A stretch of DNA of 12,433 bases from positions 1-12,433 of the forward strand of contig JBEKHC010000123.1 of assembly GCA_050012475.1 (NCBI GenBank), read 5' to 3'. The translations under genes were made by a program, and so were the position numbers. Every line of letters starts with the position of its first letter. Position 1 is the first letter of the stretch. Shown here in pieces: positions 1 through 12,433 of this stretch. Below the pieces are notes generated by a model. The model saw only the letters and a list, made by a program, of their open reading frames with translations. It had not been told where the DNA came from and did no database searches. The DNA comes from Candidatus Velthaea sp. (GTDB taxonomy: Bacteria; Vulcanimicrobiota; Vulcanimicrobiia; Vulcanimicrobiales; Vulcanimicrobiaceae).

Positions 1-126
1 CTGCGGTTGCCGACGCTGTATGGAATCTCGGGGCTGTTCGCCCTCGCCGTCGCCGGACTCGCGTTCGCGATCGTGCGCCTCTTGCAATCACGGCACGCCG
101 TTACCGCCGCGGGAGAACGAGCTTGA
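1..126 (+). CDS. C-terminal fragment of a membrane protein (possibly a transporter), truncated by the window edge
   Basis: Frame 1 is open from base 1 and reads LRLPTLYGISGLFALAVAGLAFAIVRLLQSRHAVTAAGERA*, one hydrophobic helix plus a short polar tail. Its TGA (124-126) overlaps the TTG start of the next gene (TTGA). Not in the supplied ORF track. Confidence 0.7.
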   Translation: MRLPTLYGISGLFALAVAGLAFAIVRLLQSRHAVTAAGERA

Positions 127-1700
127 GCGATCACTACGACGTCATCATCATCGGCTCGGGCGCCGGCGGCGGAACGCTGGCCCACCGTTTGGCGCCCAGC
201 GGCAAGCGCATTTTGCTGCTCGAACGCGGCGGCTGGCTGACGCGCGAGCCGGAGAACTGGGATGTCTCGGCCGTCTTCGTCGACAATCGCTACGTGTCAA
301 AGGAGACGTGGGCGGACGGCGCGGGCAAAACGTTTGCCCCGCAGAGTCATTACTTCGTCGGGGGTGCGACCAAGATGTACGGCGCCGCGCTGTACCGCTT
401 GCGCAAAGAAGATTTCGGTGCGCTGCAGCATCATGACGGCGTGTCGCCGGCCTGGCCGATCGGATACGAAGAATTCGAGCCGTATTACACGCAGGCCGAA
501 GAACTCTACCAAGTCCACGGCGCGCGCGGCGAAGATCCCACCGAGCCGCCGGCGAGCGCACCCTACGCCCGTCCGCCGGTGTCGCACGAGCCGCGCATTC
601 AACAGCTCCACGACGATCTTGCGCGGGCCGGGTATCGACCCTTTCATTCGCCCTGCGGCATCCTGCTCGACGAATCGAACATGCCCTTCAGTCCGTGCGT
701 GCGCTGCCGCGATTGCGACGGGTTTCCCTGTGCGGTGCTGGCCAAATCCGATGCCGACGTCATCGCGGTTCGCCCGGCCTTGGTACATTCGAATCTCACG
801 CTGCTTACCGGAGCCCAGGCGCGACAGCTGTTGACCAACCCGGCGGGAACAACGGTAACCGGCGTCGTCGTCGAGCATGACGGCGCGGCGCAAACCTTCA
901 GCGCCGACGTCGTCGTGGTGTCGTGCGGCGCTGCCAACACCGCGCGATTGCTGTTGGCATCGGCGAACGACAAGCACCCCGACGGCTTGGCCAACGGCTC
1001 GGATCAAGTCGGCCGGAATTACGTGTTTCACAACAGCCAGGCCGTGCTCGCCATCTCGCTCGAACCCAATCCCACGCGCTACCAGAAAACGCTGGGGCTG
1101 AACGACTTTTACTTCGGTGCGCTCGACGTCGCGTTTCCGTTGGGCAATATCCAAATGGTCGGCAAGTCGCAAGGCCCGATGTATCGTGGCGAAAAGCCGC
1201 TCGAAACCAAACTCGCTCCGGACTGGACGCTGGACAAAATTGCCGAGCACGCCGTCGATTTCTGGCTGACGACCGAAGATTTGCCGCTGCCCGACAACCG
1301 GGTCACGCTCGAGCGCGACGGTTCGATCAAGCTCACGTATACGCCCACGAACGACGTGCCGAAAAACATGCTCTACGCGCAGCTGAAGTCGATGCTCGGG
1401 AAGCTCGGGCTGCATCCGGATCATCTCATTCCGCGCACGCTCTACATGAAGTCGGAGGTCGGCGTCGCGGGCGTCGCGCACCAGGCAGGGACGGCGCGCT
1501 TCGGCACCGATCCGGGAACTTCCGTGCTCGACACGAACTGCAAAGCCCACGAACTCGACAACCTCTACGTCGTCGACACGAGCTTTTTTCCCAGCATCGG
1601 GGCCGTGAACCCCGGTCTCACCGCGATGGCCAATGCCCTGCGCGTCGGCGATCATCTTCTCCAACGTCTGCGCACATCGTCAACCGGGAGTCAAGCATGA
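123..1700 (+). CDS. GMC-family FAD-dependent oxidoreductase (525 aa)
   Basis: Rossmann motif YDVIIIGSGAGGG..LLLERG, VGGATKMYGA segment, CVRCRDCDGFPC Cys cluster, VVVSCGAANTARLLL, and C-terminal AHQAGT / LDNLYVVDTSFFPSIGAVNP (His/Asn pair). TTG start with GGGAG at 111-115. Confidence 0.93.
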   Translation: MSDHYDVIIIGSGAGGGTLAHRLAPSGKRILLLERGGWLTREPENWDVSAVFVDNRYVSKETWADGAGKTFAPQSHYFVGGATKMYGAALYRLRKEDFGALQHHDGVSPAWPIGYEEFEPYYTQAEELYQVHGARGEDPTEPPASAPYARPPVSHEPRIQQLHDDLARAGYRPFHSPCGILLDESNMPFSPCVRCRDCDGFPCAVLAKSDADVIAVRPALVHSNLTLLTGAQARQLLTNPAGTTVTGVVVEHDGAAQTFSADVVVVSCGAANTARLLLASANDKHPDGLANGSDQVGRNYVFHNSQAVLAISLEPNPTRYQKTLGLNDFYFGALDVAFPLGNIQMVGKSQGPMYRGEKPLETKLAPDWTLDKIAEHAVDFWLTTEDLPLPDNRVTLERDGSIKLTYTPTNDVPKNMLYAQLKSMLGKLGLHPDHLIPRTLYMKSEVGVAGVAHQAGTARFGTDPGTSVLDTNCKAHELDNLYVVDTSFFPSIGAVNPGLTAMANALRVGDHLLQRLRTSSTGSQA

Positions 1701-2464
1701 CATTGAAGGGCAAAGTGGCGGTCGTCACCGGCGGTAACAGCGGCATCGGTCAAGCGATCGTGCTGGGCTTGGCGCAGGCCGGCGCGAACGTCGTGATCGA
1801 CTATATCGCGCACCCCGAAGCGACCGAAGCGCTCGAGGCGCAGGTGGCCGCGCTCGGCGACAAGGCGATCGGCGTCGATGCCGACGTCAGCCAAGTCGCC
1901 GATCTGCAGCGCTTGGTGCAGCAGGCGGTCAGCTCATTCGGCCGGCTCGACGTCATGGTGAACAACGCCGGAATCGAAACGCGCACCTCGGTGCTCGACA
2001 CCACCGAGGATCAATACGAGAAGGTGTTGCGCATCAACCTCAAGAGCGCGTTCTTCGGTACGCAATTCGCGGCGAAACAGATGATCGCGCAAGGCGGCGG
2101 CGGCCGGATCATCAACATCACCTCGATCCACGAGGATTGGCCGATGCCCGGCAATACCGCGTATTGCCTTTCCAAGGGCGGAGTTCGCATGCTTACGCGA
2201 ACCGCGGGCGTCGAACTTGCGCCGCACGGCATTCTCGTCACGGGCGTGGCGCCCGGCGCGGTGGCAACCCCGATCAATCTGAGCACGATGACCGATCCCC
2301 AGCTGCTGGCCCGGTTGAACGCGGCGATTCCGCTGGGCCGGATGGCGAAACCCGAAGAGATCGCGTCCGTCGTCGCGTTTCTCGCCGGCGACGGCGCGAG
2401 TTATCTCACCGCCACCACTCTCATCGCCGACGGCGGAATGATGCAGCAAAGCCCCGGCCTTTGA
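1697..2464 (+). CDS. Short-chain dehydrogenase/reductase, glucose 1-dehydrogenase-like (255 aa)
   Basis: [24 protein letters not shown], catalytic [22 protein letters not shown] at 1697 overlaps the upstream stop (ATGA), with GGGAG at 1686-1690. The true start is far downstream of the track's 923 start. Confidence 0.92.
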
Positions 2465-5166
2465 GTTCCCTTCCGACCGCGGAAGAAGAGCGGCTCGCGC
2501 AAGCTCGTGCCGGCAGTGCGAACTGGCGCCGTTGGGGACCGTATCTGAGCGAGCGGCAGTGGGGCACCGTGCGCGAGGACTACAGCGCCGACGGGACCGC
2601 CTGGGATTACTTTCCGCACGATCACGCACGTTCGCGGGCCTATCGTTGGGGAGAAGACGGCATCGCCGGAATCTGCGACGACGAGCAGCAGCTGTGCTTC
2701 GCGATCGCGCTGTGGAACGGGCACGACCCGATTCTCAAAGAGCGCCTCTTCGGCTTGACCGGTCCTGAAGGCAACCACGGTGAAGACGTCAAGGAATACT
2801 ACTTTTACGTCGACAACGTGCCGACGCACGCGTACATGAAGTACGCTTACAAGTATCCGCAGCGTGCCTTTCCGTACGCGGATTTGGTCGAGACGAACCG
2901 CAAGCGCGGCAAGCTCGACCCGGAGTACGAGTTGCTGGACACCGGGGTTTTCGCCGAGGACCGCTACTTCGACGTCGTCGTCGAGTACGCGAAGGGCGAT
3001 CCGGATGACATGCTCGTTCGCGTGAGCGCGACGAACCGCGGCCCCCAAGCGGCGACGCTTGCGGTGTTGCCGACACTGTGGTTTCGCAATAGCTGGTCGT
3101 GGATTCCGGGGGCGCCCAAGCCCAATCTGCGGGTCGCCTCGAGCCAACCGGATTTCACCGTGATCGAAGCCGCTCATCCCAAACTCGGAACGTACTGGCT
3201 TGCCTGCGCCGGAGCTCCGGCGTTGCTGTTTACCGAGAACGAAACGAACCGCGAACGGCTGTTCGGCGTTCCCAACGCGTCGCCGTATGTGAAAGACGCC
3301 ATCGATGCGTACGTCGTTCACGGGCGCGCCGGCGCCGTCAACCCGCAGCAGTTGGGCACGAAGGTCGCCGCGCACTATGTCCTCGACGTCGCGGCCGGTC
3401 AGACCGAGACGGTCTGCCTGCGCCTGAGCGACGTCCGATCCGCGGCGCCGTTCGGTGCGCCGTTCGCCGACGTTTTTGCCGCGCGCCAAGGCGAAGCCGA
3501 CGCGTTCTACGCGCGCATCACCCCGTACGCGATGACGGCCGACATGCGCAGCGTCCAACGTCAAGCTTTTGCCGGACTTCTGTGGAACAAACAATACTAC
3601 GAATTCGATGTCGGGCGTTGGCTCGACGGTGATCCGGCCGGCCCGCCGCCGCCCGAGCAGCGTCGCAGCGGACGCAACGCGCAATGGCGCAACCTCACGG
3701 CATGCGACGTGTTTTCGATGCCCGACAAATGGGAGTATCCCTGGTTTGCCGCCTGGGATCTCGGCTTTCACGCGGTCGCGCTCGCGACGATCGATCCGGA
3801 TTTTGCCAAACGTCAGCTCACGCTCGTAACGAGCGAGCGTTATCTCAGCGATGTCGGTGCGGTGCCGGCGTACGAGTGGGCATTCGGCGACGTCAACCCG
3901 CCGGTGCACGCCTGGGCGGCGATGCGCGTCTACCAGATCGAACGCAAAATGTATGGCCGCGCCGACCGCTCGTTCCTGGTGCGGATGTTCCACAGCCTGC
4001 TGATCAACTTTACCTGGTGGGTCAACAAAAAGGATGCCGACAACAACGATCTGTTCGAAGGCGGATTTCTTGGCCTCGACAACATCGGCGTCTTCGATCG
4101 GACGCTCGTGGCGCCCGGCGGCGGAATCCTCGAACAGGCCGACGGCACGAGCTGGGTGAGCGTGTACTGTCTGAATTTACTCACGATCGCGCTCGAGTTG
4201 GCAATCGACGATGCGGCGTACGAAGCCATCGCGGTACGGTTCTTCGAGCAATTCGTGCGGATTGCCGACGCCATCGACGCCATCGGCGGTAGCCCGAACG
4301 GCTTGTGGAACGAGATCGCGGGCTACTACTACGACGTACTCAAATTGCCGGACGGACGAGCGCTGCCGATCCAAGCGGATACGGTTGCCGGGCTGGTCCC
4401 GCTGTTTGCGACGGATACGAACGAGCCGGAAGTCAGCGCGCGCTTTCTCGAGTATCGCAGCCGCTTCGCGTGGTTCGTCGCCAATCGGCCCGACCTCGTC
4501 AAGAACATCGCCGACACGAAGCGGCTGGGCGTCGACGGCCGAGTGCTGCTCGCGATCGTCGATCCCGACCAGCTCCGCCGGATGCTCGCGAAAGTGCTCG
4601 ACCCCGCGCAATTCTTGAGTCCGTTCGGCATCCGCTCGGTGTCGCGCTATCATGCGGCACATCCGGCCGCACTCGACGTCGACGGCGCGCATTTCGAGTT
4701 GGATTACGAGCCGGCCGAGTCGACGAGCGGCATGTTCGGCGGAAACTCCAATTGGCGCGGGCCGATCTGGTTTCCGATCAACTATTTATTCATCGAGTCG
4801 CTGCAGCGTTTCCACTACTATATGGGTGACGAGTTCAAGGTCGAGTATCCGACCGGTTCGAGGAACGACGCAACACTCTGGGAAGTCGCCGCGGATCTGT
4901 CGCGGCGGCAGATCGCGATCTTCCTCAATGACGACAACGGCCGCCGTCCGGTGTACGGCGGCATCGAGAAGTTTCAAACTGACCCGCATTGGCACGACCT
5001 CATCCTGTTTCACGAATATTTCCACGGCGACAACGGCGCCGGACTCGGCGCCAGCAATCAAACCGGCTGGACGGGGATCGTCGCGAAACTCATCCTGCAA
5101 TTCGCCCAATACGCGGAGGACCAATCATCGGCTTCGATCGAGCAGGAAGCCGCCGGACACGTCTGA
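2461..5166 (+). CDS. MGH1-like / GH63-related glycoside hydrolase (about 901 aa)
   Basis: Family motifs [109 protein letters not shown]. Start inferred at TTG 2461, overlapping the SDR stop (TTGA). The exact start is uncertain. Confidence 0.88.
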
Positions 5167-5281
5167 CCGCGCTCGCCGGTTTAACTCCGCCTATTTTGTG
5201 GTACGGCTAACCGCCAGCACTGGTCTTTGGTAAGCCCGGTGGATCTTGGCGTCGCGCACGATTTGCAAAGTGAGGAACGCT

Positions 5282-5602
5282 ATGTCCGTCCACATTCCGT
5301 CGACGAGCGGAGCAACGGTTCTCGCGCTCTATAAAAAGCCTGCCGATCCGGCCGCCTTCGACGCTTACTATACAGACCATCACGCGCCGCTCGCCAAGAC
5401 GCTCCCGGGTTTGGTGTCGTATACGATCGGCCGCGGCGGCGAGAAGGATCCGTACTATCTCGTCGCGATTCTGACCTTCGCATCGGAGGCGGCGTTGGGT
5501 GCCGCGTTGGGCTCGCCGCAGGGCGCCGCGACCGTCGCCGACTTGCAGAATTTCGCGCAAGCCGGCGTCGACATCTTGACCTTCCCGAATCTGCCGGCGT
5601 AG
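5282..5602 (+). CDS. EthD-family protein (106 aa)
   Basis: LYKKPADPAAFDAYYTDHHAPLAKTLPGL and SPQGAATVADLQNFA are typical EthD patterns. ATG at 5282 with GAGGA at 5272-5276. Confidence 0.85.
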   Translation: MSVHIPSTSGATVLALYKKPADPAAFDAYYTDHHAPLAKTLPGLVSYTIGRGGEKDPYYLVAILTFASEAALGAALGSPQGAATVADLQNFAQAGVDILTFPNLPA

Positions 5603-5611
5603 GCGCCGGCA
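5592..5611. terminator. GC-rich hairpin at the junction of convergent genes (possible pause or terminator, no U-tract)
   Basis: TGCCGGCG-TAGG-CGCCGGCA is a perfect 8-bp stem with the EthD TAG stop in the 4-nt loop. Confidence 0.35.
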
Positions 5612-5621
5612 TCCGACGGCG

Positions 5622-6524
5622 TCACGCGCGCCGTTTGAGCGCATCGAGTTCGTCGAGCGTGCGCGGCCAATCGGCTTTGAGCAACCGTGAAAGGCTGCGG
5701 TCGGCGAGCAGCGTCCCGCCGGTCTGGCATCGCGCGCAATAGTTCGTTTCGTTATCGGCGTAGCGGATGCGCTGCACGCGCTCGCCGCAGCGGGGACACG
5801 GTTCGCCGAAGCGGCCGTGAACGGCCATGTCTTTGCGAAATGCCGTCACGTGCTCCGGAAAAGCGCCGGTGGTTTCGTCGCGCAGCCGTTCGATCCACAA
5901 CTGCAGCGTCGACTGCGTCGCGGCGAACAAGCGTTCCCATTCACTGGGCGTGAGCTTGTGCGTCAGCGCGATGGGCGACAGTCCGGCGGCATGGAGAATT
6001 TCGTCGGAATAGGCGTTGCCGATGCCGCTGACGATGCGCGGATCGGTAAGCGCGCGTTTGAGCGTGCGGTTTTCGACGCGCAGCGCGTTCCGGAACGCGT
6101 CGAGATCGCTTGCGAGCACCTCGATGCCGCCGGGGTCGATCTCGCGCAGGGCTTCTTCGCCGCGCAACACGTGCAGCGAGGCCCGGCGTTTGGTGCCGGC
6201 TTCGGTCAGCACCAGGGTGCCGGCCGGAAAATCGAAGGCGGCGAGGTCGTTGCGCCCGCCGAGTTTCGCCCCGCGCGGACGCCAGTGCAGGCGGCCCGCG
6301 ATCATGAGGTGGAGCACCAGCCACAAATCACCATCGAGGCCGATGGCGATCCGCTTCCCGACTCGGCGCAGTTCGCGCACGACGCGTCCTTCGACGGCGG
6401 TCAGCGGCGGATCGGCGGTCCGCACCAAGAAGACGTTCGCTACACGAACGCGCTCGAGCGGTTGGCCGACGATCCGCGGCTCGAGCGCGCTGAGGTAAGC
6501 GGCAATGTCGGGAAGCTCCGGCAT
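5622..6524 (-). CDS. Fpg/Nei-family DNA glycosylase/AP lyase (MutM paralogue type, 300 aa)
   Basis: N-terminal MPELPD fixes the start at 6524. Also RRVGKR, HLMIAG, H2TH motif SGIGNAYSDEIL, and a C4 zinc finger CPRC..CARC. Confidence 0.9.
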   Translation of the reverse strand: MPELPDIAAYLSALEPRIVGQPLERVRVANVFLVRTADPPLTAVEGRVVRELRRVGKRIAIGLDGDLWLVLHLMIAGRLHWRPRGAKLGGRNDLAAFDFPAGTLVLTEAGTKRRASLHVLRGEEALREIDPGGIEVLASDLDAFRNALRVENRTLKRALTDPRIVSGIGNAYSDEILHAAGLSPIALTHKLTPSEWERLFAATQSTLQLWIERLRDETTGAFPEHVTAFRKDMAVHGRFGEPCPRCGERVQRIRYADNETNYCARCQTGGTLLADRSLSRLLKADWPRTLDELDALKRRA

Positions 6525-6606
6525 CAGCGTTGGATTCTGCCCGGCGTCCCCGCACCCCGGCTTCGCCGGCATGACTACCGGACCGTTTCTCCGTAAGCGA
6601 TGTCTC

Positions 6607-8217
6607 ATGCACGCGAGGATCTTCAGTGCGAAGACGATCGTCACGATGACGGCCGATGCGCCGCCGGCATTTGCCACGCTGGGCGAACGCATCGTCGCCA
6701 CGGGAACCGTCGCGGAGTTGCGCGGGCTGCTGCCGGCCGCCGACGTGGTGGAGTTCGGCGCTGCGGCGATCGTGCCCGGCTTCAACGATGCGCACGCCCA
6801 TCTGGCCGTCGCGGCCGAAGACATGCTGCACCTCGATCTGTCGGTCGGCGCGGTGCAATCGCTGGCCGAGATCAGCGTGAAGCTGCGGGCGCAATGCCGC
6901 GTGACTCCGGCCGGAGAATGGATTCGCGGCAGCCGCTACGACGACGCCAAGATGGCCGAAGGCCGCGTGCTCACGCGCTGGGATCTCGACGACGTGAGCT
7001 GCGAGCATCCGATCATGGTCCTGCAAGTTGCCGGTCATTGGGGTGTCGTTAATTCAAAAGCGCTCGCCCTCGGCGGGATCGACGAGGAATCGCCGCCGCC
7101 CGACGGCGGCAAATTCGGCCACGATGCCAACGGGCGCCTCAATGGCGTGCTCTTCGAACAGGCGATCTTCGACTACGCGTACCCGCAGGCTGCGCGTCGC
7201 GCGCAAACCGTCGCGCCGCCGAGCACGCCTGCCCAGCGTCGGCGCGGACTGCAGCTGGCCATGGCCGCATTTCACGCCGCCGGCCTCACGTCGCTGACCG
7301 ACGCTCTGATCGGACCGGCCGACGTGGCGCTGCTGCAGGATGCCCAGTGCGCCGGTGCGTTGACGCTGCGCGTCAACATGTTGCTGCACTACGGTCACTA
7401 CGAAGCGGTGCACGCGTTGGGGCTGCGCACGGGTTTCGGCGGCGAGTATCTGCGGTTGGGCGGAATCAAGTCGTTCGTCGACGGTGCGATCGGCGGCCGC
7501 ACCTGCTTGATGGAGCAGCCCTTTGAAGGCACGACCGACGATTACGGCATTCAATCGGTCTCCGACGCCGAGATCCGCGACATCGTGCGCATGGTGCATG
7601 GCGACGGCAACCGGGTCTGCGTTCACGCGAACGGCGATCGCGCGATCGGCAAGCTGCTCGATGCGCTCGAGGCCGCGCAGCGCGAGCAGCCGCGGCCGGA
7701 AGTCCAGCATCGCATCGAACACTGCAGCATCGTCAACGAGGAGATCCTGCGGCGGATGAAACGCGTCGGTGCGATCGCAACACCGTTCGGCAGTTACGTC
7801 CACTATCACGGCGCCAAGCTGTTGGAATGGTACGGCCCCGAGCGCATCGAGCGGATGTTCGCGCATCGCTCGTTTCTCGATTTCGGCATTCCGGTTGCGG
7901 GCTCATCGGACTACCCGTGCGGTCCGTTCGAACCGCTGCTGGCGATGCAGTCGTGCGTCACGCGCACCGGGTCGGACGGCACGCCGCTGGGCCTCTCGCA
8001 GCGCATCACGCCCGTCGAGGCGCTCGCGCTCTATACCGTCAACGCGGCCTTCGCGTCGGGCGAAGCGCACGTCAAAGGCCGCCTGGCGCCAGGCTACCTG
8101 GCCGACTTTGTCGTGCTCGACGCGAGCCCGCTCGCGATCGATCCGGCACAGCTGGGAGCGCTGCCGATTCGCGCGACGTACGTCGGCGCAGCCCCGGTGT
8201 GGGAACGTGCGGCCTGA
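6607..8217 (+). CDS. Metal-dependent amidohydrolase, Amidohydro_3 / YtcJ-NfdA-like (about 536 aa)
   Basis: IVPGFNDAHAH (HxH), IKSFVDGAIGGRT, VHANGDRA, HRIEHC, GSSDYP, ALALYTVNAA, KGRLAPGYLADFVVL. Start at ATG 6607 or possibly ATG 6571; no clear Shine-Dalgarno. Confidence 0.9.
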   Translation: MHARIFSAKTIVTMTADAPPAFATLGERIVATGTVAELRGLLPAADVVEFGAAAIVPGFNDAHAHLAVAAEDMLHLDLSVGAVQSLAEISVKLRAQCRVTPAGEWIRGSRYDDAKMAEGRVLTRWDLDDVSCEHPIMVLQVAGHWGVVNSKALALGGIDEESPPPDGGKFGHDANGRLNGVLFEQAIFDYAYPQAARRAQTVAPPSTPAQRRRGLQLAMAAFHAAGLTSLTDALIGPADVALLQDAQCAGALTLRVNMLLHYGHYEAVHALGLRTGFGGEYLRLGGIKSFVDGAIGGRTCLMEQPFEGTTDDYGIQSVSDAEIRDIVRMVHGDGNRVCVHANGDRAIGKLLDALEAAQREQPRPEVQHRIEHCSIVNEEILRRMKRVGAIATPFGSYVHYHGAKLLEWYGPERIERMFAHRSFLDFGIPVAGSSDYPCGPFEPLLAMQSCVTRTGSDGTPLGLSQRITPVEALALYTVNAAFASGEAHVKGRLAPGYLADFVVLDASPLAIDPAQLGALPIRATYVGAAPVWERAA

Positions 8218-9077
8218 TGCCGGCGCTCGTTGAACTGGCCGTCCTCAACGGCTTCGTGCAAGGCGTGATCTATGCGCTCGTCGCCGCGGGCTTGACGCTG
8301 ATCTTCGGCATGCTCGACATTCCGAATTTCGCCCACGGCGCGTTCTACGCGCTGGGCGCGTATGCCGCGTACAGCGTGGTCTCGCAAACGGGAAATTTTT
8401 GGCTCGCGATCGTCGCGGCCCCGCTCGCGGTCGCGCTGCTGGGCGCCCTGGTCGACGCCTTGGCGATGCGCCGGTTGGCGGGCGGCGGCCACGTGTACCA
8501 AATTCTCTTCACGCTCGGGCTCGTGCTCATCGTGCAAGAGGCCATCGTGCTGGTTTGGGGCGCGGACCCGACGAGCGTGAACGTGCCGCCGTCGCTCGCG
8601 GGCGGCGTTCCGCTGGGGGTCCTCCGCTTTCCGTACTACCGGCTCTTTCTCGTGTTGGTCGCTGCGATCGTCATCGGCGGGGTCTGGCTGGGCTTGCAGC
8701 GCACGAGGGCCGGCGCGATCATCCGCGCCGGGATCGACGATCCGCAGATGGTCGCGTGCTTGGGCATCGACGTGCAGCGTTTGTTCACGGTGGTTTTTGC
8801 GATCGGCGTCGGGCTTGCGGCGCTGGCCGGCGCGCTCATCCTGCCGATCCGCGGCGGCGGTCCGGCGATGGGCAACGAGCTCATGGCGGTGAGCTTCGCC
8901 GTCGTCGTGATCGGCGGCTTGGGAAGTTTTCTGGGCGCCGTGGTCGGCGGCATCTTCGTCGGCCTGGTGCAGGCAGTCATGACGATCGCGTATCCGGCCG
9001 CATCGGAAGCGGCGATCTTCGCGGCAATGGCGCTCGTGATTCTCGTTCGGCCGCAAGGCTTGTTCGGCGCGCGGTGA
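8217..9077 (+). CDS. livH: Liv-type (branched-chain amino acid family) ABC transporter permease (286 aa)
   Basis: NG..QG.IYALVAAGLTLIFGMLDIPNFAHGAFY, RTRAGAIIRA, VVVIGGLGS, RPQGLFG. ATG overlaps the upstream TGA by 1 nt. Confidence 0.9.
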   Translation: MPALVELAVLNGFVQGVIYALVAAGLTLIFGMLDIPNFAHGAFYALGAYAAYSVVSQTGNFWLAIVAAPLAVALLGALVDALAMRRLAGGGHVYQILFTLGLVLIVQEAIVLVWGADPTSVNVPPSLAGGVPLGVLRFPYYRLFLVLVAAIVIGGVWLGLQRTRAGAIIRAGIDDPQMVACLGIDVQRLFTVVFAIGVGLAALAGALILPIRGGGPAMGNELMAVSFAVVVIGGLGSFLGAVVGGIFVGLVQAVMTIAYPAASEAAIFAAMALVILVRPQGLFGAR

Positions 9078-9991
9078 AACGCTTCGGCGTCTTCGCCGCC
9101 GTCGTCGTCGTCGCGCCGCTGCTGATCCATTACCCGACGCTTGAAACGCAGATCTTGACCTTCGGACTGTTGACGGTCGCGTTCTATCTGCTGTTGGGTG
9201 AGTTGGGCTTTCTCTCGTTCGGGCAAGCGACGTTCAACGGCATCGGGGCGTACGTCACGGCTCGGGCGCTCATCGATGGTCACGCTCCGTTGCTCGTCGC
9301 GTTGTTCGGCGGGATCGTCGCCGGTGCGCTCGGCGCGGTGCTGATCGGCGCGCTTGCCATTCGCGGGCGCGGCGTGTACGGCGTCATGCTGACCTTCGCC
9401 TTCAACGAAATGGCGTACTACATCGCGTTCGAGTGGCGCGGCATGACTGGCGGCGACAACGGGCTGGGCGGCCTGCCGCACCCCGCCCTTTTCGGTTTCT
9501 CGCTCGACGACCCGGTACGCTATTACTATTTCACGGCAGCGCTCGTGCTGGCGGCATTTGCCGCGGTGTTGCGCTTGATCGGCTCACCGTTCGGCGCGGT
9601 GGTCCGCGCGATTCGCGAGAACGAAGAACGGGCGCGCGCCATCGGTTTTCGCGTCGCGCGCTACAAAATCGCGACCTTCGGCGTTTCGGGCGCGCTGTGC
9701 GGCTTGGCCGGCGGCCTCGCTGCGGGCATCTTTCATTTCGTTGCGTTGCAAACGATCGGCATCGAGACGTCGACGAATGTCGTCATCGCGGCAATCCTGG
9801 GCGGCGCCGGGTCGCCGTACGGCGCGCTGCTCGGTGCCGCGGTGTACATCGTGCTCTCCGATTCGCTCAGCCATGTCTGGGCACATTGGCCGCTGCTGTT
9901 CGGCGTCGCGTTCTGCGCGGTGGTCCTGTTCGTTCGCGGCGGCTTGTGGAGCGTCGTGCAGCGCTGGAACGTTCGTGCTGCGCACGCATAA
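9074..9991 (+). CDS. livM: Liv-type ABC transporter permease (305 aa)
   Basis: LSFGQATF, TGGDNGL, SPFG..VRAIRENEERARAIG, ILGGAGS. GTG start overlaps the livH stop (GTGA). Confidence 0.88.
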   Translation: MKRFGVFAAVVVVAPLLIHYPTLETQILTFGLLTVAFYLLLGELGFLSFGQATFNGIGAYVTARALIDGHAPLLVALFGGIVAGALGAVLIGALAIRGRGVYGVMLTFAFNEMAYYIAFEWRGMTGGDNGLGGLPHPALFGFSLDDPVRYYYFTAALVLAAFAAVLRLIGSPFGAVVRAIRENEERARAIGFRVARYKIATFGVSGALCGLAGGLAAGIFHFVALQTIGIETSTNVVIAAILGGAGSPYGALLGAAVYIVLSDSLSHVWAHWPLLFGVAFCAVVLFVRGGLWSVVQRWNVRAAHA

Positions 9992-10712
9992 GCTCACGAA
10001 ACGCTTCGGCGCGCAGACCGCCGTCGATGCCGTCGACATCGCCGTTCGCGCCGGGACGCTGCACGCGATCATCGGCCCCAACGGTGCGGGAAAAACGACG
10101 CTGTTCAACATGCTGGGCGGACAAACGCGCCCAACGGCCGGGACGATCGTCTTTCGCGAACGCGATATCACCCGGCTGGGCGTTGCGGAGCGCTCGTTGC
10201 TGGCGATCGGCCGTTCGTTCCAAGGCACGAATGTGTTTCCGAAGCTCTCGGTGTTCGAGAACGTCCGACTGGCCGCGCAGTCGCGGACGCGGCAGAGCTA
10301 TGCGGTTTGGGAACCGGCTTGCGCACTCGAGGCAGTCAACGCGCGCGCGGAGGACGTGCTCGCCGAGGCGGGGTTGCTGGGGCACCGGGGCAGAGCCGCC
10401 CGCGAACTAGCCGGCGGCGATCAACGGCTGCTGGAACTGGCGATCACGTTGGCGACGGAGCCGGTGCTGCTGCTGCTCGACGAGCCGTCGCAGGGGCTGT
10501 CGCCGGCGGAGGCGCATGCGCTCGTCGAGCGCATCCGCGCGCTTGCCGCGCGCCACACCATCGTCCTCATCGAACACAACATGCCGCTCGTGATGCGTCT
10601 CGCCGACGAAGTCAGCGTCATGCATCTGGGTCGGGTGCTCGCCTGCGGGACGCCGGCGGAGATTCGCGCCAATCCGGACGTGCGCGCAGCCTATCTCGGA
10701 AAGCGCGGCTAA
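9975..10712 (+). CDS. livG: Liv-type ABC transporter ATP-binding protein (245 aa)
   Basis: Walker A GPNGAGKTT, GRSFQ, degenerate signature LAGGD, Walker B LLLLDEP, IEH, and C-terminal GTPAEIRANPDVRAAYLG. GTG start at 9975 is inferred. Confidence 0.88.
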   Translation: MLRTHKLTKRFGAQTAVDAVDIAVRAGTLHAIIGPNGAGKTTLFNMLGGQTRPTAGTIVFRERDITRLGVAERSLLAIGRSFQGTNVFPKLSVFENVRLAAQSRTRQSYAVWEPACALEAVNARAEDVLAEAGLLGHRGRAARELAGGDQRLLELAITLATEPVLLLLDEPSQGLSPAEAHALVERIRALAARHTIVLIEHNMPLVMRLADEVSVMHLGRVLACGTPAEIRANPDVRAAYLGKRG

Positions 10713-10713
10713 G

Positions 10714-11406
10714 TTGCTGGAGCTCGCGGACGTCGACGCGTCGTACGGCGCAAGCCAAGTCCTGTACGGCATGTCGCTCGCGGTTCCCGACGGCGGGGTG
10801 GCTGCACTGTTGGGCCGCAACCGTGCCGGCAAATCGACGACGCTCAAAACGATCATGGGGCTGGTCGTGCCGCGGGCGGGCACCGTGCGCTTCGCGGGGC
10901 GCGACATCGGCAGCCTGCCGCCGCATCGGATCAACCGGCTGGGCATCGCGTACGTCCCCGAAGAACGCCGGATCTTCGCCGATCTCACCGTCGACGAGCA
11001 CCTGGCCATTGCCGCGCGCGGCAGCGCGTGGACGGTGGCCGACGTGCTGCGCGTCTTCCCGGCGCTCGTTGCGCTGCGCGGGCGGCGCGGGCGAAACCTC
11101 AGCGGCGGCGAGCAGCAGATGCTCGCAATCGCGCGGGCGCTCGTCACCGGCCCGCGGCTGCTGCTGCTCGACGAACCCTCGCAGGGCCTAGCGCCGGTGA
11201 TCGTCGATGCGGTTGCGTCGGCGATTGAGACGCTGCGCGCGCAGGGACTGGCGATTTTGCTCGTCGAGCAAAATCTCGATCTCGCGCTCGGCGTCGCGGA
11301 TCGCGTTGCGATCGTCGATCAAGGCACGATCGTCTTCGCGGGCACGCCCGACGAGCTGCGCGCGCGTGCCGATCTGCAGCTGACCTATCTCGGGGTTGGC
11401 GCGTGA
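10714..11406 (+). CDS. livF: Liv-type ABC transporter ATP-binding protein (230 aa)
   Basis: GRNRAGKST (variant Walker A), YVPEERRIF, LSGGEQQMLAIARAL, LLLDEPSQGLAP, LLVEQN, YLG. TTG start. Confidence 0.88.
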   Translation: MLELADVDASYGASQVLYGMSLAVPDGGVAALLGRNRAGKSTTLKTIMGLVVPRAGTVRFAGRDIGSLPPHRINRLGIAYVPEERRIFADLTVDEHLAIAARGSAWTVADVLRVFPALVALRGRRGRNLSGGEQQMLAIARALVTGPRLLLLDEPSQGLAPVIVDAVASAIETLRAQGLAILLVEQNLDLALGVADRVAIVDQGTIVFAGTPDELRARADLQLTYLGVGA

Positions 11407-11452
11407 GAGAACGCCCAGTCGGACGACCTGCTCGTGTCGAAAGGGACGCCAC

Positions 11453-12433
11453 ATGAAACGCAAGCTCTTTCTGGCGGCGCTTGCGAGCGGTGCCGCCGCC
11501 GGCGCGAGCGGTCTGCCGGCTCGAGCCGCGGACGACGTCGTGTTCGCGGGGGTGTTTTCGTCGACGGGTGCCTACGCGGCATTCGGCCGCGATACCGATC
11601 GCGGCTTCCGGCTTGCCGTCAACGAAGTCAAATCAACGGTCGATGGCCACGCGATCAGCTACATCACGCGCGACGATCAAACCAAGCCCGACGTTGGCCA
11701 GCAGCAAGCGACCGACGCCTACGATCATGACGGCGCGCGTTTCTTCGCCGGCGTGGCTTCGAGCAGCGTCGCGCTCGCGCTCGCGCAAGTCGTCGCCGAC
11801 AAGCATGCGCTGTTTTTCACCAGCGTCGGCGCCGATGACATTACCGGAAAGAACTGTAACGCGTATACGTTTCGCTGGTCGGTTCCGGCGTACGGCGCGG
11901 TGCGCGCGACCATGTATCCCTTCATCAGAAAGTTCCCCGACGCAAAGACCTGGTACACGATCACGCCGTCGTACGTCTTCGGCGAGTCGCTGCTGCAGAA
12001 CGTCAAGGACGTCGCGCAGGAACGCGGCCTCACCCTGGTGGGAAACGACTATCACCCCTTGGGAACGACCGAGTTTTCGGACTATATCGCCTCGAGATCG
12101 TCCGGCCCAATACCGGCAAAATCCAAAAGTCCGCCGCTCCACACGTACAAGATCTTCGTGGATTTCTTCAAGCCGAAGCTCGCCGCCGTTTTCAGCGCGT
12201 GAAAGGGCGTGTACGCGGGCTGTCAGTACTGGCACGAAGCGAGTCTCGCGACGCTGCGGGCGAGCGAAGCGTACCAAGCCGCCTACGGTGAACCGCTGGG
12301 CTACGTCGGTGCGAGCGCCTACATCGAAGCAAAACTGACGTTCGCGGGTATCGCGCGCGCGAAATCGGTCGATCCGGCAAACGTGGCAAAAGCGCTCGAA
12401 GGCTACGCGTACACCGGGCCGACGGGTCCCGAG
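11453..12433 (+). pseudogene. Liv-type ABC substrate-binding protein, disrupted by an internal inversion and premature stop; runs off the window end
   Basis: AAGGGA at 11441-11446, ATG 11453, signal peptide, periplasmic-binding motifs (STGAYA.FG, RDDQTKP, GVASSSVALA, GADDITGKNCNAYTFRW, YVFGESL, HPLGTTEFSDY). Binding-protein-like sequence stops at about 12090 and TGA falls at 12200-12202. The same frame then resumes as KGVYAGCQYWH...AKSVDPANVAKALEGYAYTGPTGPE. Confidence 0.85.
12091..12205 (-). other. Inverted internal segment of the substrate-binding protein gene
   Basis: The reverse complement of 12091-12204 translates without stops as FHALKTAASFGLKKSTKILYVWSGGLLDFAGIGPDDLE, which joins naturally to GVYAGCQYWH starting at 12206 on the + strand. 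Confidence 0.88.

What the first reader, a model, noticed from the sequence alone, without database searches (positions are those of the whole stretch)
12091..12205. About 115-bp intragenic inversion disrupts the ABC substrate-binding protein gene
Seen in sequence: after ...TTEFSDYIA the + strand becomes unprotein-like (SRSSGPIPAKSKSPP...) and hits TGA at 12200-12202. The same frame then continues for 77 codons of convincing binding-protein sequence. The minus strand of the intervening block reads FHALKTAASFGLKKSTKILYVWSGGLLDFAGIGPDDLE. Flipping 12091-12205 in place gives one uninterrupted ORF: ...FSDYIA-FHALKTAASFGLKK...GPDDLE-GVYAGCQYWH.... From family knowledge, an 'ALKxAxxFGL...GP...EGVY' stretch is what Liv-type binding proteins carry at this position. 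Inference: the cause is a replication template-switch mutation, an amplification or assembly chimera, or (less likely) a reversible intragenic ON/OFF inversion. Breakpoints are ambiguous by a few bases, and the left one lies on a CTCGAG palindrome.
Basis: partly seen in the sequence, partly recalled or inferred. Interest (0 to 1): 0.85.

Follow-up and report, generated by a model that had tools for sequence, protein, structure and literature searches.

The report
Flipped-and-deleted segment breaks transporter gene
In a peat-soil bacterium, a 112-base piece of a nutrient-binding protein gene lies backwards and about 58 neighbouring bases are missing, which cuts the protein short; this broken version recurs in several public samples and is likely a one-off copying accident rather than an on/off switch, so it is a real but ordinary knockout mutation.

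Summary
63 of 77 homologues hit the block on the minus strand, but all 77 carry 20 residues, including a predicted core beta-strand, between the left part and the block, and these are absent from the window. The lesion is a 112-bp inversion plus an adjacent 58-bp deletion, net -57 bp. Flipping back gives an open frame 19 residues short, not the intact gene. It is not a library or assembly artefact: contigs of 7 of 8 runs laid bridge at least one new junction. One run, X3, shows the un-inverted joint with no mismatch, so both alleles occur in this Eremiobacterota population. The ends share only a 3-bp inverted repeat and no recombinase gene lies on this or the adjoining contig, so a programmed intragenic inverton is unlikely. 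Best reading: a recent one-step template-switch deletion-inversion that likely nulls a Liv/Urt-type binding protein in an otherwise intact operon; Ku/LigD end-joining is the rival. Open: whether un-inverted cells keep the 58 bases.

The parts
11453..12091 (+). 5' part (A) of the substrate-binding protein gene, codons 1-213
   Evidence: PF13458 E 1.7e-42; 87-89% identical to the four closest homologues over residues 27-213
12092..12203 (-). Inverted block (B), 112 bp, homologue residues 234-270 plus the last two bases of codon 233; ends ambiguous within 12090-12093 and 12203-12206
   Evidence: tblastn minus-strand hits in 63 of 77 homologues; 89% to P0002; blastn +/-/+ pattern in 16 of the 17 relative loci L033-L049 tested for A and C, with a minus-strand block hit in 14 of 17
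12091..12092 (+). Site of the 58-bp deletion (D): homologue residues 214-233, with predicted core strand 222-225
   Evidence: 20 of 20 residues aligned in 77 of 77 homologues; model of P0001, pLDDT 92
12090..12092 (+). Left arm CCT of the 3-bp inverted repeat; CC is likely priming microhomology, T a base copied twice
   Evidence: residue 214 is K, A, E, Q or R in the 58 closest homologues, so its codon does not begin with T
12204..12206 (+). Right arm AGG of the 3-bp inverted repeat; return point
   Evidence: joint of run X3 with 3 letters fitting either side
12200..12202 (+). Premature TGA created by the inversion; product is 249 aa (213 native + 36 antisense-encoded)
   Evidence: identical 249-aa protein P0078 on 2 contigs, longest 74,966 bp
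12204..12433 (+). 3' part (C) of the gene, homologue residues 271-346; continues on contig C76 after a 45-bp gap
   Evidence: PF13458 E 2.8e-10; 86-90% to the closest four homologues; L032 bridges C123 and C76
6607..8217 (+). Amidohydrolase_3 gene, first gene of the conserved operon, intact
   Evidence: PF07969 E 1.2e-92; full-length 74-77% match in three of four relatives tested, split in the fourth
8217..9991 (+). Two Liv/Urt-type permease genes (8217-9077, 9074-9991), intact frames
   Evidence: PF02653; best NCBIfam UrtB and UrtC, below cut-off
9975..11406 (+). Two ABC ATPase genes (9975-10712, 10714-11406), intact frames
   Evidence: best NCBIfam UrtD/LivG and UrtE/LivF, below cut-off

Best explanation
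A 112-bp block of this binding-protein gene is inverted and 58 bp beside it are missing, likely from a single replication template switch, and the result is a truncated and predicted non-functional allele that occurs beside an un-inverted allele in the same peat and soil population. Inferred steps: the polymerase stopped after codon 213; its 3' end CC paired with GG about 170 bp ahead on the opposite parental strand; it copied 112 bases backwards; it then rejoined its own template at codon 270, skipping codons 214-233 and copying one base twice. In the four-point model the order is 1-3-(4,2), which must be an inter-strand switch because point 2 lies ahead of point 1. Shown: inversion, deletion, premature stop, recurrence of both junctions, and an un-inverted right-hand joint. 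The event cannot be undone by flipping, because the deleted bases are gone.
For: Inversion. Deletion: 77 of 77 homologues have the 20 residues; they hold predicted strand 222-225 and align without a gap in PDB 4maa. One step: a plain 57-bp deletion of the usual codons 214-233 would leave Ile or Lys at the join, but the flip-back product has Phe; residue 214 never has a T-start codon in 58 homologues, and residue 233 is I or V in 56 of 58, fitting the two T bases kept. Real DNA: left junction bridged in X1, X2, X5, X6; right junction in X1, X2, X4, X7, X10. Un-inverted joint 12093/12204 in X3, depth 8, no other letters in 930 bases laid, and in L032. Recent: A, B and C are equally conserved, 83-90%, and the other five genes are intact. 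Not an inversion-prone assembly: 0 of 985 orthologous loci (1.05 Mb) show an antisense block, while both positive controls do. Model: PMC7954356, section 8 and passages read.
Against: The left junction has only 2 bp of in-register microhomology and the right one 0-1 bp, so nothing proves polymerase switching. A 112-bp copied tract is near the maximum seen in apes (median 12, max 128; PMC7954356). The genome encodes Ku and LigD, which could join the same ends. The 58 bases were not seen in a same-species sequence: X3 has no cover from 12010 to 12092 or from 12183 to 12203, and no intact same-species protein came up in three searches. Only contigs, no raw reads, were available. Loss of function is predicted, not assayed.
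Confidence: 0.6

Rival explanations
1. The same real, irreversible null allele, but made by break repair: breaks cut out the segment, 58-60 bp were resected, and Ku/LigD end-joining religated the remaining piece backwards; the 3-bp inverted repeat would be a filled-in staggered end.
For: Ku (E 4.9e-48) and LigD (E 2e-42) lie 3 kb apart on contig C6. Junction microhomology is only 0-2 bp. A short inverted duplication at both ends is what staggered breaks leave (recalled, no call).
Against: It needs at least two breaks within 170 bp and recapture of a 112-bp fragment. One switch event explains deletion, inversion and the duplicated base together. A search for LigD, end joining, inversion, junction and microhomology gave 3 papers, seen as listings only, none on such a product by title.
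Confidence: 0.27
2. A reversible intragenic ON/OFF switch: the block flips between CCT and AGG, giving a truncated OFF form and an in-frame ON form 19 residues shorter than homologues.
For: Both orientations of the right-hand joint exist in near-identical DNA. The in-place flip is exactly in frame. X3's left side is not covered, so an un-inverted allele without the 58 bases is not excluded. The genome has tyrosine and serine recombinases elsewhere.
Against: The repeat is 3 bp; 20-bp arms match at 8 of 20 outside and 3 of 20 inside, against an 11-bp repeat at the thiC inverton (PMC10028968, passages). No PF00589 or PF00239 match on C123 or C76. The ON form would lack a predicted core strand kept in 77 of 77 homologues. 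No run laid showed both orientations of one junction.
Confidence: 0.04
3. A library, amplification or assembly chimera; the genome really has the intact gene.
For: MDA chimeras are mostly inversions with an intervening deletion (PMC1855051, abstract). The window is a metagenome-assembled contig at depth about 4. L032 shows that odd joins do arise here.
Against: Base-identical junctions in contigs of 7 of 8 runs with different sample codes, dated 2018-2025. Two junctions are needed. No hairpin at the site (z -0.10). 0 of 985 other loci show such a block.
Confidence: 0.04
4. The population also holds a true inverted duplication, C'-B-C as in L032, and the window's allele is a deletion-remodelled product of such a fold-back intermediate.
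For: L032 reads C' then B then 58 bases of C, holding both the new right junction and the ancestral joint in one contig.
Against: One contig only. It ends 55 bases past the 3-bp overlap, as a k-mer graph loop would (inference), and a mix of the two alleles gives the same path. It differs from the window at 12119, which suggests reads of two strains.
Confidence: 0.05

Closest known systems
Short-range template-switch events, four-point model, inverted-fragment type 1-3-2-4 (PMC7954356; section 8 and passages read)
   Same: One inverted copy of nearby sequence replaces a longer stretch; point 2 ahead of point 1 implies an inter-strand switch; the paper calls such deleting events not reversibly reconstructable.
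   Different: Described there in great apes with median tract 12 and maximum 128 bases; here 112 bases in a bacterial coding gene, with a 1-base overlap of points 2 and 4.
Intragenic invertons (PMC10028968; passages read)
   Same: An inversion wholly inside a gene that brings a premature stop; both orientations occur in a population.
   Different: Those are defined by flanking inverted repeats and lose no sequence; here the repeat is 3 bp and 58 bp are deleted.
Human-chimpanzee microinversions (PMC8755829; abstract read)
   Same: Short precise reverse-complement segment; replication or break-repair origin proposed.
   Different: Those are 17-33 nt and flanked by perfect or near-perfect inverted repeats; this is 112 nt, with a deletion and no real repeat.
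MDA chimeras (PMC1855051; abstract read)
   Same: Inverted sequence with an intervening deletion and 2-bp priming at the junction.
   Different: Those are random, sample-specific artefacts; these junctions recur base for base in separate runs.
Liv/Urt-type (PF13458) solute-binding protein, PDB 4maa from Pseudomonas fluorescens Pf-5
   Same: Intact homologue P0001 matches 4maa by sequence (E 4e-107) and fold (TM 0.90, 47% identity).
   Different: No NCBIfam equivalog cut-off is reached, so the substrate is not known; the window's copy is broken.

Membership tests
Intragenic inverton (recombinase-driven phase variation) | Inverted repeats long enough for a site-specific recombinase flank the segment | tested here: not met
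   3 bp in register; no perfect repeat over 4 bp between 12070-12110 and 12185-12225
Intragenic inverton (recombinase-driven phase variation) | Flip is conservative: no sequence lost | tested here: not met
   58 bp missing relative to 77 of 77 homologues; the same-species un-inverted left junction was not seen
Intragenic inverton (recombinase-driven phase variation) | Both orientations present | tested here: inconclusive
   Both occur across samples (X3 un-inverted; 7 runs inverted) and both right-hand joints in L032, but not shown within a clone
Intragenic inverton (recombinase-driven phase variation) | A cognate invertase | tested here: inconclusive
   None on C123 or C76; 14 PF00589 and 5 PF00239 matches elsewhere in the genome
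Short-range template-switch mutation | New sequence is an exact reverse complement of nearby ancestral sequence, explained by four switch points | tested here: met
   Block maps to codons 233-270; all bases of 12080-12220 are accounted for by A, reversed B and C
Short-range template-switch mutation | Primer-template pairing at the switch points | tested here: inconclusive
   2 bp in register at the left (4 bp CGCC/GGCG one base out of register), 0-1 bp at the right
Short-range template-switch mutation | Arises during replication rather than by break joining | not testable with these tools
   Ku and LigD are present; sequence alone cannot separate the two
Amplification or assembly chimera | Junction confined to one library | tested here: not met
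   New junctions bridged in 6 of 7 runs other than the possible source
PF13458 Liv/Urt-type binding protein | Pfam Peripla_BP_6 above cut-off and type I binding-protein fold, in an operon with two permeases and two ATPases | tested here: met
   146.8 and 40.8 bits for the two pieces, cut-off 31.7; fold of P0001; operon

The most novel reading that the evidence does not exclude
A recombinase-free intragenic switch: the block flips back and forth on a 3-bp inverted repeat between a truncated OFF form and an in-frame, 19-residue-shorter ON form, and X3 holds the flipped-back state rather than the ancestral gene. It is not excluded because X3's left junction was never seen.
Probability: 0.04. Interest if true: 0.75.

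Novelty: new member of a known kind. Interest (0 to 1): 0.24.

Why it matters
It is a clean, base-resolved case of a deletion-inversion in a wild, uncultured bacterium, caught while both alleles still occur. Gene callers see only a short gene, and SNP-based strain tools would miss it. The broken allele is the common one among the runs laid (7 of 8), which makes a testable question: did loss of this transporter spread by selection or ride along with a clone? It does not reveal a new regulatory mechanism.

Tried and rejected
Simple in-place inversion: rejected, 19 residues short. Repeat-driven flip: no informative repeat at the ends. Hairpin-driven recurrent artefact: z -0.10. Inversion-prone genome or assembly: 0 of 985 loci orthologous to 2.0 Mb of congener G001 (about 45% of that genome, 75% DNA identity) had an antisense window above 11 of 18 identities, controls 16 and 17; blocks under about 18 codons or in genes without an orthologue would be missed. 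Search for an intact same-species copy: none among cluster representatives; a C-terminal query found nothing at E 1e-30 among 55 candidates; the cluster-member look-up could not be made; the exact 24-base scan of JGI contigs found only L032; no second copy in the own genome; the operon was not found by DNA search in the 3 congeneric genomes, 88-94% complete. Short pieces at 12164-12201 in X1, X5 and X10 (2-3 mismatches, loose ends) were set aside as other organisms; X5's loose end encodes the usual deleted residues but cannot be assigned to this species. X7's left junction has only 26 letters on one side and was not counted. Gaps in contig cover were not used as evidence. Paper searches for bacterial precedents gave 4, 2 listed, 6 listed, 2, 0 and 1 papers; none named this locus by title; the library lacks most subscription papers.

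Full report
Setting. The window is the whole contig C123 of a 204-contig, 5.36-Mb assembly, 93.8% complete and 5.3% contaminated. Named homologues and related loci are Candidatus Eremiobacterota / Vulcanimicrobiota, and the runs that hold the DNA are peat and soil metagenomes. The gene starts at ATG 11453 and is the last of six co-oriented genes: an Amidohydro_3 enzyme, two PF02653 permeases, two ABC ATPases and a PF13458 binding protein. The same order is found in relatives at 72-84% protein identity, and the first five genes have open frames. The contig ends inside the gene; JGI contig L032 links it across a 45-bp gap to the end of contig C76, which encodes the normal C-terminus.

The observation. 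The + frame stops at TGA 12200-12202 and then continues. The minus strand of 12094-12201 is 32/36 identical to residues 234-269 of P0002, and the + strand gives no alignment. 63 of 77 homologues give a minus-strand tblastn hit on the block; the 14 misses are the most distant. At DNA level 14 of 17 relative loci (L033-L049) show a minus-strand hit on the block between + strand hits. The inversion is therefore certain.

In homologues 20 residues (214-233) lie between the end of the left part and the start of the block. They align in full in 77 of 77 homologues and are absent from the window on either strand. In the model of P0001 (pLDDT 92) they hold strand 222-225 and parts of the two flanking helices; the nearest solved structure, 4maa, has them without a gap. 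Bookkeeping: A ends at 12091 (codon 213); 12092-12203 is the reverse complement of the last two bases of codon 233 through the second base of codon 270; C resumes at 12204 with that same second base. So 58 bp are lost, 112 bp are inverted and 1 bp is duplicated, net -57 bp. This is why a flip gives an open frame, but one 19 residues short.

Is it real? Eight of 21 listed runs were laid, all as contigs. Counting 31 or more letters on both sides, the left junction is bridged in X1, X2, X5 and X6, the right in X1, X2, X4, X7 and X10. That is 7 of 8 runs, or 6 of 7 without X1, the possible source. They bear six other study codes and dates from 2018 to 2025, though they may belong to one site or campaign, so they are not six independent populations. 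Depths are low (2-5). The identical 249-aa product also stands on a 74,966-bp contig, whose independence is unknown. The region forms no unusual hairpin, and 0 of 985 other loci tested against a congener show such a block, while both controls do. An artefact is unlikely.

Both alleles exist. X3, the deepest run (8-9.6), shows the joint 12093/12204 on opposite strands, which is block and right part in the ancestral order, with no other letters over 930 bases. X10, under the same study code, has the inverted junction. L032 holds both the new right junction and the ancestral joint, reading C'-B-C, with one difference at 12119; a mixed-strain graph path is the likely cause (inference). X3 has no cover across the left side, so it is not shown that un-inverted cells keep the 58 bases. 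This is the main gap.

Mechanism. The ends share CCT/AGG and nothing longer in register. The T cannot come from codon 214, which is K, A, E, Q or R in the 58 closest homologues, so it is best read as a base copied twice, leaving CC/GG as the only prior pairing. A deletion followed later by a flip would leave Ile or Lys at the join of the un-flipped form, not the Phe that the flip gives; one event fits better (inference). In the four-point model (PMC7954356, section 8 and passages read) the order is 1-3-(4,2); point 2 lies ahead of point 1, so the template would be the opposite parental strand; the paper notes that such deleting events cannot be reconstructed in reverse. Against: pairing is minimal and the tract is long for that class (median 12, max 128). 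The genome has Ku and LigD, so end-joining of a re-inserted fragment is a real rival that sequence cannot exclude.

Not an inverton. Intragenic invertons are flips between inverted repeats, 11 bp at thiC (PMC10028968, passages read). Here the repeat is 3 bp, sequence is lost, and no tyrosine or serine recombinase match lies on C123 or C76, although 14 and 5 matches lie elsewhere. It resembles an inverton only in outcome, a premature stop and two orientations in a population.

Consequence. The product has 213 native and 36 antisense-encoded residues and lacks nearly half of a two-domain binding protein, so it is predicted to be inactive (family knowledge, not assayed). The nearest paralogues in the genome are 28-30% identical, so the transporter likely has no cognate binding protein. 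A, B and C are equally conserved (83-90%), so the lesion is recent. The operon was not found in three congeneric genomes, which fits an accessory locus on its way out. Whether the high share of the broken allele reflects selection is untested.

Literature and earlier notes. Six searches for bacterial precedents returned no paper on this locus by title; most were seen as listings only. PMC8755829 and PMC1855051 were read as abstracts. No supplements were read. The scan's own notes gave three unrelated findings in this genome and nothing by words or sequence.

Verdict. A real, well-resolved deletion-inversion null allele, polymorphic in a wild population; a new instance of a known class of mutation. 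Interest 0.24.

Noticed in passing
L032:834 (C-terminus of the same gene; G000 contig C76 end): L032 has lost the gene's stop codon by one substitution and reads 6 residues further than C76; one of 4 differences in 949 bases. Possible further decay, strain variation or error.
   Followed up: partly
L032:995-1393: The contig reads C'-B-C, a fold-back arrangement that holds both the new and the ancestral right-hand joint, with a Phe-to-Tyr difference at window 12119.
   Followed up: partly
L047:3297-3407 (protein P0014): An orthologue in another Vulcanimicrobiota assembly has a frameshift inside the same block; an independent inactivation or an assembly error.
   Followed up: no
window 6607-12433: The amidohydrolase-ABC operon is conserved in other Eremiobacterota genomes at about 75-78% DNA identity but was not found in 3 of 3 congeneric genomes, which suggests a patchy accessory locus.
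   Followed up: partly
L032:3-770 / G000 C76 end: A MarR-GNAT fusion gene converges on the binding-protein gene.
   Followed up: no
G000 C6:70103-73454: Ku and LigD genes lie 3 kb apart, a complete end-joining pair.
   Followed up: partly
window 123-6530: Left half of the contig: GMC oxidoreductase, a short-chain dehydrogenase-like ORF (by eye), MGH1/GH63 glycoside hydrolase, EthD and an Fpg/Nei glycosylase on the minus strand; none aligns with the relatives' flanks.
   Followed up: no
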